DNA from: Escherichia coli
GTDB taxonomy: Bacteria; Pseudomonadota; Gammaproteobacteria; Enterobacterales; Enterobacteriaceae
Assembly: GCF_001677475.2 (NCBI RefSeq)
Contig: NZ_CP012498.1
Strand: one strand, 5' to 3'
DNA: 64,000 nucleotides
Shown here in pieces: positions 18,001-24,000 of the stretch. Position numbers: made by a program. Position 1 is the first letter of the stretch, and each line of letters starts with the position of its first letter.

Positions 18001-21000
18001 AAGACGTTATTCCCCCCTATGAGCAGATGTACCTGCTAAATCAGCAGTTGATCTGCAACGCTGACCAGCTCAAACATGCCGTTATCACAGTTGGCGGCCA
18101 GGCTGTGCAATACTGGATATCCTATTATCATGCACAATACGGCGACAGATTGCCTGATGAGCGTCTCACCACTTCTGTTGACTGCGACTACAGTGCTCGG
18201 AAAGATGATATTGCGGTTATAGCAAAAACGCTCAACGTGAAAACGTGGGAAAACAAAGACGGTCAGCCCCCATCCCTTGCGCAGTTTATGCTTATCGATC
18301 AGGACACACACGATATCAAACGGGATGATGGACGTTTATTTGCCGTACCGGATGCGCCTGACGAGCCAAATGTGGTGGATATTATCGATCGGCCCGGAGG
18401 CTTCGACCGTTCTGATTTTCTGGGGGAAAAGCTTTACCTGCATACTGCCCCGTTTTATGTAGAAGCAACCGGCCCCGGTATGCCTGAAATGAATGAAAAG
18501 GTAAGGGTGTTGAACCCTGTAGCCTGTATGCGATCGCGCTTTAGCAATCTGATTGCCTTGCGCCGTGATGCTGAAATTGAAATTGCGCGAATTAACGCGC
18601 TCAAGATTCCGTGTTATTTCTTTCTCATCGAACAGTTTGATGAACAGCCGTTCAAAGTTGCTCGAGGAATCTTTATGGATTTATGGCGGCTCGCGAATGA
18701 CGAAAGTTGTCTGCGCCATCAGACCTTCTGGCATAGTTGGCAGGGGCCACTTCTTGAAGGGCAACAAAGTAACAACATCACTCTGATTGATATATTGGAA
18801 GGCGTCCATGCATTCCTGGAAGGGCATCTTGATGACTTTGAAATACCTGAAGCCTTTGTCACCAAAGAATTACCGATAAAGCTCGCACAGTTGCGTGAAC
18901 GCTGGGAGCGTTATGTGGTACTCAATGCTGAATGGGCAGCAAGAGGACGCAGGGGATTTGAACGTAATTACCGTGATGATTAGCCTCCTTTGAGCTGAAA
19001 GATTTGTACATGTGCAAATCACCAGAGCACCCGCTAATCTTTGTTTTAAATTAAAATGGGCAGAATATATTCCGCCCGGCTTTGTTATTTTTTTAACATA
19101 GAAAGATTGCGTCTGGTTTGTTCTTCGAAATCATCTTTTGAAGTGATGCTCTCTGATTTGTTTTCTGAAGATGCCCCTATGATGTTTTTTAACACACTTA
19201 TATCAATTGATGTAGATGTGTATCCTGTTGTTTGCTCTATAAGTTTCACCAGATTTTCTGCAGTGATTTTCTCACTGAAAAAACCACTGATTAGCGTTAA
19301 CAGTCGGGGGTCAACAGAATAAAGAGCTGCTCCGCAAATAAGAGATTGTCTGTAGAAGTCTCCCCGCATTTGTATCGGGAGAGAGTCTATTGTTTGTTGT
19401 GTCAGGTTATCCTGCGGATAAAGTGTCGGGTGCAGGTATGCCACAACTTTCTTTCTTTTTTTCGGATCACTGCTTTCCATTACGCATGCACCATTGCTTT
19501 CACCAATGCAAACTGAGGTTCATCCACCTTGTTCACTTTCAGATTCGGGAAATATTGCTTTATGTGAGGGTAAATAAGCTCGGCTCCTCCGCCAGTGAGA
19601 TAGATTCGGTTCATTCCTGAGAATGTTGAAATTTCCTGCCTGATGCTTTCTGCCAGAGATTTCACTTCCCTGTCTATTACATGAGTAATGTTTTTTATTT
19701 CAGCTACATCATTTATTAATGTCTGGAGATATTCATTATCATGTCTGTTTTTTATTAACTCATCAGCAATAAAATAATTACATGGTGTGGAGGCTTTCGT
19801 CAGCGCATTCATGACGGTATGAGTGATGCGGGATGTCCCGATTTCTGAATACCCACGGATTTCAGAAATGCCTTCAAATGCACCGAGAATTAAACCACAA
19901 TCCAGAGTGGTTCCTCCAAGATCGATAATCAGGCTGCGTTCAAGTTTGTTTACTTTATCTTTTTTTAGTGATTCAAATGCAGCTGGCAAAGATTCAGGCA
20001 TTACATTAACTTTTTTAATTTTAAATGTTTCCCCTTTATTCAGAGATATCTCACGGAGAACATTTGCCTTTTTTCTTTCTATTCTTTCTTCATTTGGTTG
20101 ATTGTCATTATCAAAGAATTCGGTTACAGGTAATGTCACTGTCAGTTCTACATCCTGTGGCTGAAGGCCGGATGTCAGCAGTGCATGATGTATGGCAAGC
20201 AAATTGGTGGTGCTGTATTGATAACTGACATGTGTTGTACCTATGACAGCAGTGCTGCCCAAATCATAGGTGTATTTTTTTCCATCCACGACGTAATTGT
20301 AAACTTTGCCGGCATTAAACAGTCCCGGGTTCCAGCCTTCTTTAAAGCTGTTTCCTGACAGACTGGTTCTTACCTCGCCATCTTCAAGCCAGGCCAGTTT
20401 TACGTTAGTTGAACCATCATCGCATGATACTTTTAGCATTTTTTTTCTTGCCTCGTTTTGAGTTTGTGTTTGTCTCAAATTGAGCATCCTTCATATAGAT
20501 GCATCTTTTTGAGTTTTTTGTTGTTCCTTATTGTGTCTCATTTTGGGTTCATGTCAAGCGATGAGGCTCTTTTAGAGTCTCTTTGTGTTCTTGTTGTGAC
20601 TCAGTTTGAGTCTCTATCGATTTCTCATTTTGCGTTACGAACTGAGACGGAAACTACTTAACCAGGCCGTGCCGGCACGTTAACCGCCCGTTTCTTTTCC
20701 GGTAAAGGATGTCGCCGTGCTCCTCTTTTTACTGCGCCGGCTGACGCGGCGCGGCATAAACGCTGCCTGTGGTCAGTGTCCCGCGTCCGGCGGGCACGGG
20801 ACGGGCGCTTTTACCGCTCCCGGCTGGCGTCGGTGACAGTGTACGCCAGCCAGTCGCCCTTTTCTGATGAACGCCCTTCAAGCCGCTTTCGCGGCATAGC
20901 CTTGCCGTCAAAAAGACGACGGCTGCGGTATTCCACGGTCGGCCTGACCCGTTACCGGACGCGGTGAACAGCCCACAGGCAGCGGGGAACGGGCACCACA

Positions 21001-24000
21001 GGGGGGCCCTCCCGGTGCCCTCTGTAAGAGAAGGAGTTTTGTATGTCCCGTTTTGTCCTCGGTAACTGCATCGATGTTATGGCCCGTATTCCTGATAACT
21101 CCATTGATTTCATGTCGGGTAGCAGCTGCACATTACTGTGCAGCCGCCCCCTAAGAACCGTACGTGCCAGTTTCCCGGCATACGGCTCAAGCCTTTCAAT
21201 AACTCCACATTAGAGCCGGCTTCATAACAGATATTCCCTGATGTTTTGCAGTGTGATGACATGCCGGATGTAACATGGCCAGATTACCTATGTTATCCAG
21301 TCCCCCTTCGGATTTCGGCACAATGTGTCGAAGTTGCCAGCCTGTTGTGGCGTTCACTGGCAGGTGGCAGACGGGGCACTGACCTCCCTGTCGGAGCCAC
21401 AGATTTCTTAGGCGAGAGTAACCCTGTATGGATTCCAGCATCGTAGCTTTTAGCCGTGCTTCAAAGTACGATTCGTAGCTGGGATCAAAAGGGTTAGCAG
21501 TGCTTTTTATTTGTCTGTGTCTTTTGACTGGCATATCCGAGATTTCATATAGCGCCAGTAACTCACGTTTGCCTGATGGCAGGTATGAGACGACAATAAC
21601 TCAGTCCGCCTGGCGCCGATTATTCTGGCCGGTTTTGTAACCTGAGTGTCATTTACATGATCCAACAGGAAATGGCGTGACGCTCAATACTTCTCAGGTC
21701 AGTTACTATATGACTCAGCGTAAGAAAGGTATAACTCAGCATATCTCGGCCATGAAGGCTGGTATCTCAGTCCGTTCTGGTCGTCGGATCGAAAAAGGAG
21801 AGTGGGCAAAAAACAGTGTTCGGCACTGGCGCACACGCAAAGATCCTCTGGAAGCTGTGTGGGACAGCATGCTTGTTCCTCTGTTGAAAGAGAGGCCGGC
21901 TCTGACACCAACAACTCTACTGGAGATGCTACAGGATAAATATCCCGGCCAGTACCCCAACAGCCTTCGAAGAACAATGCAACGGCGGGTTCGCGAATGG
22001 AAACTACAGTATGGTACAGAGCAGGAGGTCATGTTCCGCCAGCAACATCAGCCCGGCCTGCGAGGCCTGTCGGACTTTACTGAACTGAAAGGTGTAGTTG
22101 TCACCATCGCCGGTAAGTTGTTGGCGCATAAGTTGTATCACTTCCGTCTGGAATGGAGCCACTGGAGCTGGATGCGGGTTGTTCTGGGTGGTGAGAGCTT
22201 CTCTGCTCTGGCTGAAGGCCTGCAGGAAGCCCTCGGACAACTGGGCGGAGTGCCGGTAGAACATAAAACGGACAGCCTGAGGGCAGCATGGAAACAACAG
22301 GGCGAAGATGGACGCCGCGAGCTGACTGAGCGTTATGCTACTCTCTGTCAGCACTACGGAATGCAGGGCGTACACAATAATGCCGGTCGGGGCCACGAAA
22401 ATGGCTCGGTTGAAAGTGCCCACGGACATCTGAAAAGGCGTATCTGTCAGGCGCTGATACTGCGGGGCAGTAACGACTTCAGCACCATAGAAGAATATCA
22501 GGCCTTCATCACTCAGCAGGTTATGCGGCACAACCGTAACAATCAGGATCTGGTCAAGGAAGAACGTCTTCATCTGAAACCGCTGCCGCTTCGTCGCAGT
22601 GCTGACTATGATGAGCTGACTGTGAGGGTTAGTCGCAGCAGTACCATCAATGTGAAGCACGTCGTCTACAGCGTACCTTCCCGGCTTGTAGGTCAACTGT
22701 TACGGGTCAGGTTATGGGACGATCGTCTGAGCTGTTACGTTGGCAGCAGCGAGGTCATGAGCTGCCCTCGCGTCAGACCAGAAAAAGGGAAGACGCGGGC
22801 CCGTCGTATCGACTTCCGACATGTGATCGACAGTCTGGCAAAAAAGCCCGGTGCGTTCTGCCATGCAACGCTGAGAAATGACATCCTGCCGGACGATGAA
22901 TGGCGGAGGCTGTGGCGTCGCTTATGTAATCATCTGGAGCCCGATATGGCAGGAAGGCTGATGGTACATGCCCTGAAACTGGCTGCAGGATACGACGATA
23001 TCTCAGTCGTGGCAAAAGGTATGGAGCAGATGCTGAATACCCCGGGAAACGTGGATCTGCACCGGCTGATGCGCTTCCTGGGTATAAAAGAAAAGGCGTT
23101 GCCGGTAGTCAATGTGATACAGCATAACCTGAGCAGTTATGAGCAACTACTGCGTGGCAAGGGAGGTTCGCAGTGAGCAATATCCATCACCTTGAACATA
23201 GCCTGCGTAAACTACGCCTGACACGAGTTGGAGCTGAATGGCACGCTCTGGAAAAACGAGCGCTGGCAGAAGGCTGGACACCATCGCGCTATCTTCTGAC
23301 GCTATGCAATGAAGAACTCCTGTGGCGCGAGAGTGAAAAACTGCGTCGTTATAAAAAGGAGGCCCGGTTGCCAGTTGCCAAAACGCTGAGCGAATACGAC
23401 TTCAGTCAGGTGCCGGAACTGAATGGAGCTCAGTTCCGGCAACTCTGTGAAACGACAGACTGGGTTGATGCAGGAGAAAACGTTCTGCTGTTCGGAGCCA
23501 GCGGGTTGGGGAAAAGCCATCTGGCGGCAGCGATCGTGGATGGCGTAGTAGGTCAGGGCTACCGGGCCCGGTTCTACAGCGCAGGAGAGCTGTTGCAGGA
23601 ACTACGTAAAGCCAGAGCTCAGTTGAAACTGAATGAGCTGCTACTGAAACTGGATCGCTACCGGGTGATAGTGGTGGATGATCTTGGCTATGTCAAACGC
23701 GATAGTGCCGAAACGGGTGTGCTGTTCGAGTTAATAGCGCATCGCTATGAACGTGGGAGCCTGGTGATAACCAGTAACCATCCGTTCAGCATGTGGGGCA
23801 GCATCTTCGTGGATGAGACTATGGCGGTGGCTGCGGCAGACAGGCTGATCCATCACGGATATATGTTCGAACTGAAAGGGGAAAGCTACAGGAAAAAGAC
23901 AGCGAAGGCAGTAACAAGCGCGACTTGATGTCGCCCTGAAGGGTGCGGCCAGTATAGTTGGCGCGAGTCGGCAAAACTAGTTGACGTCTAATAGGCAGGA

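What the first reader, a model, noticed from the sequence alone, without database searches (positions are those of the whole stretch)
20700..21040. GC-rich structured non-coding blocks upstream of leading-region genes (candidate single-strand promoters)
Blocks at 20700-21040 (before the methyltransferase), 28030-28420 (before klcA) and 31679-32300 are 60-70% GC, lack credible ORFs, are rich in inverted repeats (e.g. ccacaaaagtttttgcccaaaagcaggcaaaaacttttgcgg at ~32060-32105), and the first two share a motif AAAGGATGTCGCCG. Leading regions of F-like plasmids are known to carry ssDNA promoter/ssi elements that drive early expression of anti-defence genes in the recipient; these blocks are in the right positions to be such elements.
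Basis: partly seen in the sequence, partly recalled or inferred. Interest (0 to 1): 0.5.

Follow-up and report, generated by a model that had tools for sequence, protein, structure and literature searches.

The report
Known plasmid single-strand DNA promoters
The three GC-rich non-coding blocks are copies of the hairpin-forming single-strand promoters that F-like and IncI1 plasmids use to switch on anti-defence genes as soon as the transferred DNA strand enters a new cell. They are real, but all three kinds were already described and tested between 1997 and 2026.

Summary

- **Block 1 (20682-21042)** is 98% identical over 361 nt to the DNA just upstream of M.EcoGIX in pESBL. That is the "class 3" ssDNA promoter, called ssp3 in F.
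- **Block 2 (28030-28425)** is 93% identical to the "class 2" promoters upstream of klcA and ardA in pESBL. These are ssp2 or "Frpo3" in F.
- **Block 3 (core 31816-32247)** is 93% identical to F ssiD/Frpo1, the "class 1" promoter.

The F nic sequence lies on the minus strand, so the minus strand is the transferred strand and the template for these genes. On that strand each block folds into a long imperfect hairpin (z = -4.5, -3.9 and -7.7). Across 15-17 homologues each, the hairpins show compensatory base changes and always fold better than the complementary strand.

Class 2 carries one conserved promoter-like site, TTGCAT-N15-TAAGAT, whose -10 is mismatched in the stem.

The only possibly new points are minor:

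- In this plasmid the promoters' outputs are damaged: a group II intron splits the methylase, an IS110-family element separates Frpo from ygeA, and ssb-psiB is missing.

The parts
20682..21042 (-). Class 3 (ssp3 / M.EcoGIX-type) single-strand promoter element, read on the transferred (minus) strand. It runs up to the methylase start codon at 21043.
   Evidence: 98.1% identity over 361 nt to pESBL-EA11 just upstream of M.EcoGIX and 96.4% to F. DNA fold -95.1 kcal/mol, z = -4.5. In 17 homologues, 97% of cells are paired against 33-44% in slid controls, and 15 pairs have compensatory changes.
20704..20725 (-). Terminal module at the 3' edge on the transferred strand (GAGGAGCACGGCGACATCCTTT). GGAGC can pair with GTTCC at 20986-20990.
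20762..20790 (-). 3' arm of the basal main stem of block 1 (the non-template side). It contains GACACT (20775-20780), my best -10 candidate, whose A(-11) and T(-7) are unpaired.
   Evidence: Consensus structure and compensatory pairs 72/293, 76/289, 78/287 and 79/286. Position. The -10 assignment is inferred, not shown.
20955..20983 (-). 5' arm of the basal main stem of block 1 (the template side).
20838..20843 (-). TAnAnT hexamer, invariant in all 17 homologues (TACACT here, TAAAAT in most). It lies in the loop of an internal hairpin. Role unresolved.
20991..21020 (+). Small hairpin between the main stem and the ribosome-binding site, probably part of the mRNA leader.
   Evidence: Four of its six pairs show compensatory changes. 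Its only non-standard cells are C.A on the transferred strand, which is G.U in the RNA sense.
21043..21113 (+). First ~23 codons of the M.EcoGIX-type methyltransferase gene. The rest lies at 25934-26545.
28081..28425 (-). Class 2 (ssp2 / 'Frpo3' / klcA-ardA-type) single-strand promoter element upstream of klcA/ardB (28441-28866).
   Evidence: 93.2% and 92.7% identity to the two class 2 copies of pESBL, 93.4% to F and 84% to Samuel et al.'s candidate Frpo'4. Fold -98.9 kcal/mol, z = -3.9. In 16 homologues, 98.5% of cells are paired against 32-41% slid, with 13 compensatory pairs.
28187..28213 (-). Promoter-like site on the 3' arm: TTGCAT (28208-28213), a 15-nt spacer, then TAAGAT (28187-28192). 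The three central bases of the -10 face mismatches in the stem.
   Evidence: It is the only conserved promoter-like site in the class 2 alignment (mean score 5.9, next best 1.0). T, A and T of the -10 are invariant. The mirror site on the plus strand is CTGCAT-N19-TTTTAT and scores 1.6. Function is inferred.
28081..28104 (-). Terminal module of block 2 (GCGGAGCCTGCGGCGACATCCTTT). GCGGAG can pair with TTCCGC at 28410-28415.
28034..28053 (+). Terminator-like hairpin plus T run ending the upstream operon. It is not part of the promoter element.
31816..32247 (-). Class 1 single-strand promoter (homologue of Frpo1/ssiD, also called ssp1).
   Evidence: 93.4% identity to F ssiD; 93.3% to F Frpo1 and 85.3% to Frpo2. 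Fold -122.2 kcal/mol, z = -7.7. In 15 homologues, 96.6% of cells are paired against 37-46% slid, with 10 compensatory pairs.
32064..32105 (-). AT-rich apical hairpin of the Frpo homologue.
31857..31879 (-). Class 1 version of the terminal module (GGAGCGCAGGCCACGGCGCGACA).
31679..31815 (.). GC-rich flank upstream of the Frpo core. It is conserved in some related plasmids but absent from F. Role unknown.
   Evidence: 94-96% identity to L004, L005 and L026, and 76-81% to L018, L020 and L028.
35777..35795 (-). F-type oriT nic sequence GCGTGGGGTGT|GGTGCTTT. It defines the minus strand as the transferred strand.
   Evidence: Exact match on the minus strand. The nic sequence itself is recalled from my knowledge of F oriT.
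35001..35189 (-). Homologue of F ssiE (a single-strand initiation site), which also lies in the leading region.
   Evidence: 96.8% identity over 190 nt.

Best explanation
The three blocks are the class 3, class 2 and class 1 single-strand DNA promoters of an F-like leading region.

Proposed mechanism:
1. During conjugation the minus strand enters the recipient 5' end first, starting from the nick at about 35784.
2. Each block on that strand folds back on itself into a ~300-nt imperfect hairpin.
3. The stem imitates duplex promoter DNA, with a -10 region left partly unpaired, so host sigma-70 RNA polymerase can start without a complementary strand.
4. The polymerase reads the transferred strand towards its 5' end. 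This makes sense RNA for the genes downstream: the methylase operon, klcA/ardB and ygeA-ygeB.
5. Synthesis of the complementary strand irons out the hairpins and switches the promoters off.

Shown here:
- Near-identity to elements that were tested experimentally.
- Correct position and strand.
- Stable hairpins on the transferred strand, supported by compensatory changes.
- One conserved promoter-like site in class 2.

Taken from the literature: ssDNA-dependent transcription, mapped transcription starts, and shut-off on conversion to double strand.

Inferred only: which hexamers act in classes 3 and 1, and whether the copies in this particular plasmid still fire.
For: Homology:
- Block 1 is 98.1% identical over 361 nt to the region upstream of M.EcoGIX in pESBL.
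- Block 2 is 93.2% and 92.7% identical to the regions upstream of klcA and ardA in pESBL.
- Blocks 1, 2 and 3 are 96.4%, 93.4% and 93.3% identical to the matching F regions.
- F ssiD matches at 93.4%.

Published function:
- Three promoter classes, RNA-seq induction and 5' RACE starts (PMC12672017).
- Frpo1 and Frpo2 deletions abolish early expression (PMC9849209).
- ssp2 and ssp3 in F (bioRxiv 10.64898/2026.01.09.698686).
- Independent identification of 'Frpo3' (bioRxiv 10.1101/2025.04.03.647016).

Strand:
- The nic sequence is on the minus strand.
- The leading genes are on the plus strand.
- The transferred strand is more stable than its complement in 17/17, 16/16 and 15/15 homologues, by 5.6, 8.0 and 17.2 kcal/mol on average.

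Structure:
- z-scores of -4.5, -3.9 and -7.7.
- 97-98% of cells paired against 32-46% in slid controls, with 15, 13 and 10 compensatory pairs and 0 of 500 shuffles reaching the observed values.

Promoter:
- Class 2 has TTGCAT-N15-TAAGAT with invariant T, A and T in the -10 and three mismatches opposite it. The mirror site in the duplex is much poorer.
Against: - A strict sigma-70 consensus scan finds no site in any block. It also finds none in the validated Frpo homologue, so the scan is uninformative rather than contrary.
- I could not fix the hexamers of class 3 or class 1. The best-conserved -10-like hexamer of class 3 sits in a hairpin loop with no -35.
- The homologues are related sequences, so the strand-asymmetry counts are not independent observations.
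- Nothing was measured on this plasmid.
- Two of the three promoters here have damaged outputs: the methylase is split by an antisense intron, and a 1.4-kb IS lies between Frpo and ygeA.
Confidence: 0.92

Rival explanations
1. The blocks serve mainly as DNA-replication signals on the entering strand, either as primer-RNA sites (ssi) for complementary-strand synthesis or, for block 2, as a hairpin roadblock that delays that synthesis. Gene expression would then be secondary.
For: Frpo was first isolated as ssiD and makes primer RNA in vitro (summarised in PMC7690428). In F, ssp1 transcripts prime conversion in vivo, and ssp2 stalls complementary-strand synthesis until UvrD resolves it (bioRxiv 2026.01.09.698686). 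The window also carries an ssiE homologue.
Against: These roles are additions to promoter activity in the same papers, not alternatives. Every copy sits directly upstream of a gene in the sense orientation. RNA-seq and 5' RACE show that the promoters drive operons.
Confidence: 0.1
2. The blocks are ordinary double-strand promoters followed by structured mRNA leaders. On this reading the hairpins act in RNA, not in DNA.
For: The small hairpin at 20991-21020 does look selected in the RNA sense. Any DNA hairpin is also present in a read-through RNA.
Against: The main hairpins fold better on the minus strand than in the RNA sense in all 48 homologues, because many pairs are G.T on the minus strand. 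The best promoter-like site on the plus strand is weak (scores 0.3-3.2 against 4.7-6.7). The literature cited reports that ssDNA promoters are inactive in double-stranded form, and leading-gene products are below detection in donor cells.
Confidence: 0.03
3. The blocks encode the small 'hypothetical proteins' annotated over them in many public records.
For: Stop-free frames of 70-140 codons exist. F and many other plasmids annotate a hypothetical protein there.
Against: There is no convincing codon periodicity, and most indels break the frame. The variation follows base pairing instead.
Confidence: 0.01
4. The elements are intact, but in this plasmid they are partly relics. Block 1 can now express only a 23-codon stub followed by antisense intron RNA, and block 3 must read through 1.4 kb of antisense IS110 DNA to reach ygeA. 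Only block 2 would then still do its original job. This rival concerns function in this plasmid, not the identity of the elements.
For: - Intron A with a nested IS21 lies at 21114-25932 on the minus strand, inside the methylase gene.
- An IS110-family element lies at 32248-33621, about 40 bp upstream of ygeA.
- ssb, psiB and hok are absent.
- Both junctions are shared by at least 67 and at least 86 database plasmids, so these lineages persist.
Against: The promoter sequences themselves are as well conserved as in F and pESBL. Genes further downstream in the block 1 operon (26548-28026) are intact and could still be reached.
Confidence: 0.35

Closest known systems
F plasmid Frpo1 / ssiD (ssp1a), Frpo2, and ColIb-P9 ssi1-3: 'class 1' ssDNA promoters
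   Same: Block 3 is 93% identical to Frpo1 and 85% to Frpo2. It has the same long hairpin with an AT-rich apical stem. It has the same orientation and lies upstream of ygeA, as Frpo1 does.
   Different: This plasmid has a single copy, where F has two. The ssb-psiB-psiA-hok segment that lies between the two F copies is missing. An IS110-family element separates the promoter from ygeA. Similarity to the ColIb/pESBL copies is only partial, at 76-90%.
pESBL 'class 2' ssDNA promoters upstream of klcA and ardA, also known as F ssp2 or 'Frpo3' (Wen et al. 2025; bioRxiv 2026.01.09.698686; bioRxiv 2025.04.03.647016) and as candidate Frpo'4 (Samuel et al. 2024)
   Same: Block 2 is 93% identical to both pESBL copies and to F, and 84% identical to Frpo'4. 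It lies directly upstream of klcA/ardB. The hairpin and the TTGCAT-N15-TAAGAT site are conserved.
   Different: No functional difference is apparent. There are small sequence differences in the upper stem.
pESBL 'class 3' ssDNA promoter upstream of M.EcoGIX, also known as F ssp3 (Wen et al. 2025)
   Same: Block 1 is 98% identical over its whole length and sits at the same position before the methylase start codon.
   Different: The methylase gene it drives is split after about codon 23 by an antisense group II intron that carries an IS21.

Membership tests
Class 1 ssDNA promoter (Frpo / ssi) | Sequence homology to F ssiD/Frpo or to ColIb ssi1-3 | tested here: met
   93.4% over 334 nt to D90178 ssiD. 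Partial matches of 76-81% to ColIb Frpo1-3.
Class 1 ssDNA promoter (Frpo / ssi) | Lies in the leading region, with the transferred strand as template for the downstream genes | tested here: met
   The nic sequence is on the minus strand at 35777-35795. The element is about 3.5 kb from nic, with ygeA and ygeB downstream on the plus strand.
Class 1 ssDNA promoter (Frpo / ssi) | Long, stable, imperfect hairpin on the transferred strand | tested here: met
   -122.2 kcal/mol, z = -7.7. Covariation in 15 homologues. More stable than the complement in 15 of 15.
Class 1 ssDNA promoter (Frpo / ssi) | -35 and -10 boxes reconstituted in the stem | tested here: inconclusive
   No strict consensus site. 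Several weak candidates exist (TTGACG-N18-TTTGTT, TTGAGA-N17/18-CATCACT, TGGACT-N17-CTGTCT). The published box positions are only in figures that I could not read.
Class 1 ssDNA promoter (Frpo / ssi) | Transcription from single-stranded but not double-stranded template | not testable with these tools
   Needs in vitro transcription or RNA analysis of transconjugants.
Class 2 ssDNA promoter (klcA/ardA type, ssp2) | Sequence homology to the pESBL elements upstream of klcA and ardA | tested here: met
   93.2% over 396 nt and 92.7% over 343 nt.
Class 2 ssDNA promoter (klcA/ardA type, ssp2) | Directly upstream of an anti-restriction gene on the transferred-strand template | tested here: met
   The klcA/ardB homologue (97.9% to F) starts at 28441.
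Class 2 ssDNA promoter (klcA/ardA type, ssp2) | Large stem-loop on the transferred strand | tested here: met
   -98.9 kcal/mol, z = -3.9. 98.5% of cells paired and 13 compensatory pairs. More stable than the complement in 16 of 16.
Class 2 ssDNA promoter (klcA/ardA type, ssp2) | -35 and -10 boxes in the stem | tested here: met
   TTGCAT-N15-TAAGAT is the only conserved site. T, A and T of the -10 are invariant, and the -10 is mismatched in the stem. Whether these are the boxes the authors drew could not be checked.
Class 2 ssDNA promoter (klcA/ardA type, ssp2) | Transcription start mapped in transconjugants; roadblock to complementary-strand synthesis | not testable with these tools
   Published for pESBL and F, not for this plasmid.
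Class 3 ssDNA promoter (M.EcoGIX type, ssp3) | Sequence homology to the pESBL element upstream of M.EcoGIX | tested here: met
   98.1% over 361 nt, ending one base before the methylase start codon.
Class 3 ssDNA promoter (M.EcoGIX type, ssp3) | Directly upstream of the leading-region DNA methylase | tested here: met
   The methylase start is at 21043. The gene is interrupted at 21113|21114 and resumes at 25934.
Class 3 ssDNA promoter (M.EcoGIX type, ssp3) | Large stem-loop on the transferred strand | tested here: met
   -95.1 kcal/mol, z = -4.5. 97.1% of cells paired and 15 compensatory pairs. More stable than the complement in 17 of 17.
Class 3 ssDNA promoter (M.EcoGIX type, ssp3) | -35 and -10 boxes in the stem | tested here: inconclusive
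   The best geometric candidate is GACACT (20775-20780), with A(-11) and T(-7) unpaired but no recognisable -35. An invariant TAnAnT lies in a hairpin loop.

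The most novel reading that the evidence does not exclude
The three promoter classes are reported to share no sequence homology, yet all carry the same signature at their upstream edge, which is the 3' edge on the transferred strand. On the plus strand it reads TGTCGC-N0-16-GCTCC; on the transferred strand it reads GGAGC...GCGACA.

This could mean that the classes descend from one ancestral element. It could also mean that they share a functional end-piece. One possibility is a closing helix (GGAGC with GTTCC or TTCCG) followed by a single-stranded tail that sets the boundary of the folded promoter or helps load polymerase or SSB.

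I found no mention of this signature in the papers I could read, but I could not see their figures or supplements.
Probability: 0.3. Interest if true: 0.4.

Novelty: already known. Interest (0 to 1): 0.22.

Why it matters
These hairpins decide which plasmid genes are expressed in the first minutes after transfer: anti-restriction, methylation and SOS inhibition. They therefore influence whether resistance plasmids establish in new hosts.

For annotation, it matters that thousands of plasmid records label them as hypothetical proteins or leave them blank.

For this window, the practical message is that the leading region carries all three known promoter classes, but two of them have their first downstream gene disrupted or displaced by mobile elements.

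The finding adds no new kind of element.

Tried and rejected
- **Strict sigma-70 scan of each block.** No site in any block, including the validated Frpo homologue, so the test is uninformative.
- **Rfam, whole window.** No family in the blocks. The only hits were two group II introns, traJ/FinP and AS-traG.
- **Samuel et al.'s list of known and candidate Frpo sequences.** Blocks 2 and 3 match, block 1 does not. Block 1 was identified only through F, pESBL and Wen et al.
- **The invariant TAnAnT in the block 1 hairpin loop as the -10.** Rejected on geometry: the same loop bases would have to serve as non-template -10 and as template for the start site, and there is no -35.
- **GCTCC in the shared edge motif as an anti-Shine-Dalgarno sequence that masks the ribosome-binding site in read-through RNA.** The predicted duplexes are not better than those of control windows in most homologues. 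The fraction of controls at least as good ranges from 0.03 to 0.88, typically 0.2-0.6.
- **The IS110-family element repeatedly targeting Frpo copies.** The second case I examined (pCRE10.1) is the same insertion, not an independent one.
- **Coding potential.** Rejected.
- **Published positions of the -35 and -10 boxes.** They appear only in figures, and one review is not held in the library.

Full report
**Context.** The window is an F-like conjugative plasmid.
- The traJ leader and FinP lie at 36581-36690 and traM at 36107-36484.
- The F nic sequence GCGTGGGGTGT|GGTGCTTT is found exactly on the minus strand at 35777-35795. The sequence is recalled from my knowledge of F oriT.
- The minus strand is therefore the transferred strand. 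It enters the recipient 5' end first from about 35784, and DNA at lower coordinates is the leading region.
- All leading genes homologous to F lie on the plus strand, so the transferred strand is their template.

**Observation.**
- The three blocks stand out in GC content, at 0.63-0.71.
- The 14-mer AAAGGATGTCGCCG occurs exactly twice, at 20704 and 28081.
- The quoted inverted repeat is real.
- Alignments of homologues show no convincing codon periodicity, and most indels break the frame. The blocks are therefore non-coding, even though GC-rich DNA gives long stop-free frames and many records annotate hypothetical proteins there.
- The boundaries need small corrections, listed under the observation check.

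**Identity.** Comparison with F (NC_002483) gives this layout:

| Window | F locus L001 | Content |
|---|---|---|
| 20682-21113 | 5804-6237 | upstream region and first 70 bp of the methylase |
| 25934-28908 | 6239-9223 | rest of the methylase through klcA |
| 31816-32247 | 15563-15994 (93.3%) and 10175-10604 (85.3%) | Frpo1 and Frpo2 |
| 33622-36698 | 15992-19064 | ygeA to traJ |

- F ssiD (D90178) matches 31911-32242 at 93.4%.
- Samuel et al.'s candidate Frpo'4 matches 28082-28411 at 84% (sequences from PMC11541004, supplement 4).
- Against pESBL-EA11 (NC_018659), block 1 is 98.1% identical over all 361 nt to the DNA ending one base before M.EcoGIX. Block 2 is 93.2% and 92.7% identical to the regions just upstream of klcA and ardA.

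**What is published.**
- Wen et al. 2025 (PMC12672017) found six operons induced up to about 500-fold in pESBL transconjugants. Each is preceded by a large hairpin, and each transcription start was mapped by 5' RACE.
- They grouped the promoters into class 1 (ssi1-3 and Frpo), class 2 (klcA and ardA) and class 3 (M.EcoGIX), and noted that classes 2 and 3 are conserved in F.
- A 2026 preprint names them ssp1a/b, ssp2 and ssp3. It shows that ssp2 also stalls complementary-strand synthesis until UvrD acts.
- Another preprint found ssp2 independently and called it 'Frpo3'.
- Couturier et al. showed that deleting Frpo1 or Frpo2 abolishes early expression.

Blocks 1, 2 and 3 are therefore members of classes 3, 2 and 1.

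**Independent tests of the structure.**
- Folded as single-stranded DNA, the minus strands give -95.1, -98.9 and -122.2 kcal/mol, with z = -4.5, -3.9 and -7.7.
- I collected 40 loci that encode the methylase from a species-representative genome set. All three block types recur in them at 66-97% identity.
- I aligned 17, 16 and 15 copies.
- On consensus structures, 97.1%, 98.5% and 96.6% of cells form pairs. When the partners are slid by one to three columns, 32-46% do.
- 15, 13 and 10 pairs show changes on both sides, against 0-6 in the slid controls. No shuffle out of 500 reaches the observed values.
- The transferred strand folds better than its complement in every sequence (17/17, 16/16 and 15/15; mean difference 5.6, 8.0 and 17.2 kcal/mol). 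Consensus energies are likewise lower. This is expected if G.T pairs are tolerated on the strand that folds.
- The sequences are related, so these counts overstate independence.

**Promoter elements.**
- A position-weight scan along the alignments finds one conserved site in class 2: TTGCAT-N15-TAAGAT on the 3' arm (window 28213-28187). The T, A and final T of the -10 are invariant.
- In the stem, the three middle bases of this -10 face mismatches.
- The corresponding plus-strand sequence, which is what a duplex would present, is CTGCAT-N19-TTTTAT and scores far lower. This fits the published idea that the promoter works only when folded.
- For class 3 the best geometric candidate is GACACT (20780-20775). 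It lies on the 3' arm of the basal stem, and its A(-11) and T(-7) fall in an internal loop and a bulge. There is no clear -35.
- Supporting a start near the base of that stem: the small hairpin just downstream (20991-21020) has compensatory changes, and its only irregular cells are G.U in the RNA sense. The main stem instead has G.T on the DNA strand.
- For class 1 I could not choose among several weak candidates.
- These assignments are inferences. The published boxes are only in figures.

**The shared motif.**
On the plus strand it reads TGTCGC-N0-16-GCTCC.
- In the window it occurs four times, all on the plus strand: at the upstream edge of each of the three blocks, plus one chance hit across an intron boundary. 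The expected number is 0.34.
- In the fetched loci, nearly all hits are on the plus strand at the upstream edges of class 3, class 2 and class 1 copies. This includes both F Frpo copies and the pESBL ssi copies.
- On the transferred strand, GGAGC can pair with GTTCC or TTCCG next to the main hairpin. These bases do not vary, so covariation cannot test the helix.
- I tested whether GCTCC masks the ribosome-binding site in read-through RNA. That idea is not supported.
- The signature suggests common ancestry or a shared end-piece. I found no mention of it in the text I could read.

**State of this plasmid.**
- A group II intron on the minus strand (21114-25932), itself carrying an IS21 (istA 21677-23176, istB 23173-23928), splits the methylase gene after about codon 23.
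- A second intron (29337-31678) lies between the klcA operon and the Frpo copy. L005 shows the empty site and L026 the same insertion.
- An IS110-family element (32248-33621, transposase on the minus strand) lies between Frpo and ygeA.
- ssb, the parB-like gene, psiB and hok are absent from the whole window.
- Both insertion junctions are shared by dozens of database plasmids.

**Verdict.** The feature is real and correctly interpreted, and it is already known. Interest is low, apart from the shared edge signature and the local damage to the promoters' outputs.

Noticed in passing
window 21114-25932 (minus strand): A group II intron (RT/maturase 23819-25330) is inserted antisense into the methylase gene after about codon 23. 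It is itself interrupted by an IS21-family element (istA 21677-23176, istB 23173-23928). The same methylase/intron junction is present in at least 67 database plasmids.
   Followed up: partly
window 29337-31678 (minus strand): A second group II intron (RT/maturase 29418-31085) lies between the klcA operon and the Frpo copy. L005 (Klebsiella pneumoniae ATCC 13883 scaffold) has the uninterrupted site at 9888|9890, and L026 carries the same insertion.
   Followed up: partly
window 32248-33621: An IS110-family element (RNA-guided transposase 32432-33493, minus strand) is inserted about 40 bp upstream of ygeA, right at the base of the Frpo hairpin. Frpo transcripts must cross 1.4 kb of antisense IS to reach ygeA-ygeB. 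The junction is present in at least 86 database plasmids, for example pCRE10.1.
   Followed up: partly
window, between 29261 and 33622: The plasmid lacks the ssb, parB-like, psiB and hok genes of F and has a single Frpo copy. Its left context is that of F Frpo2 and its right context that of F Frpo1. This is the product expected from the Frpo1 x Frpo2 recombination that Couturier et al. predicted, but I did not test the alternative that this lineage never had the segment.
   Followed up: partly
window 20710-20723, 28087-28102, 31857-31879; loci L001-L044: The composite signature TGTCGC-N0-16-GCTCC marks the upstream edge of all three ssDNA promoter classes, almost always on the plus strand, in F, pESBL and about 35 other loci.
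   Followed up: partly
L005 5670-6000; L011 4559-4776; L016 4041-4260; L021 4046-4264 and 1631-1706; L024 5205-5333: Promoter classes are not tied to particular genes. In L005 (and, by the same edge motif, L009, L010, L012 and L039) the methylase is preceded by a class-2-like hairpin (GCCCGGCTACAGT...GGCACGGC, z = -5.0) instead of class 3. Several Citrobacter and Raoultella loci carry second or third class-3 copies further upstream.
   Followed up: partly
window 35001-35189 (minus strand): A 96.8% homologue of F ssiE, a different kind of single-strand initiation site, lies between ygeB and the SLT gene.
   Followed up: no
window 20400-20660: An AT-rich stretch with repeated TTGAG/GAGTCTC-like units lies just upstream of a ParM-like gene on the minus strand (19480-20487). 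It is probably a partition centromere that marks the far end of the leading region.
   Followed up: no
L044 2956-3216 (pCRE10.1); hits: Public annotation places spurious genes over these hairpins. One is an 86-aa 'single-stranded DNA-binding protein' over the Frpo copy. Others are 'hypothetical protein' or 'arginase' over the class 3 element.
   Followed up: no
L002, L003, L008, L026, L029, L040: Contigs filed under Oscillibacter, Collinsella, Streptomyces morookaense and Oscillospiraceae carry enterobacterial F-like leading regions at 91-98% protein identity. This is most likely contamination or mis-binning in those assemblies.
   Followed up: no
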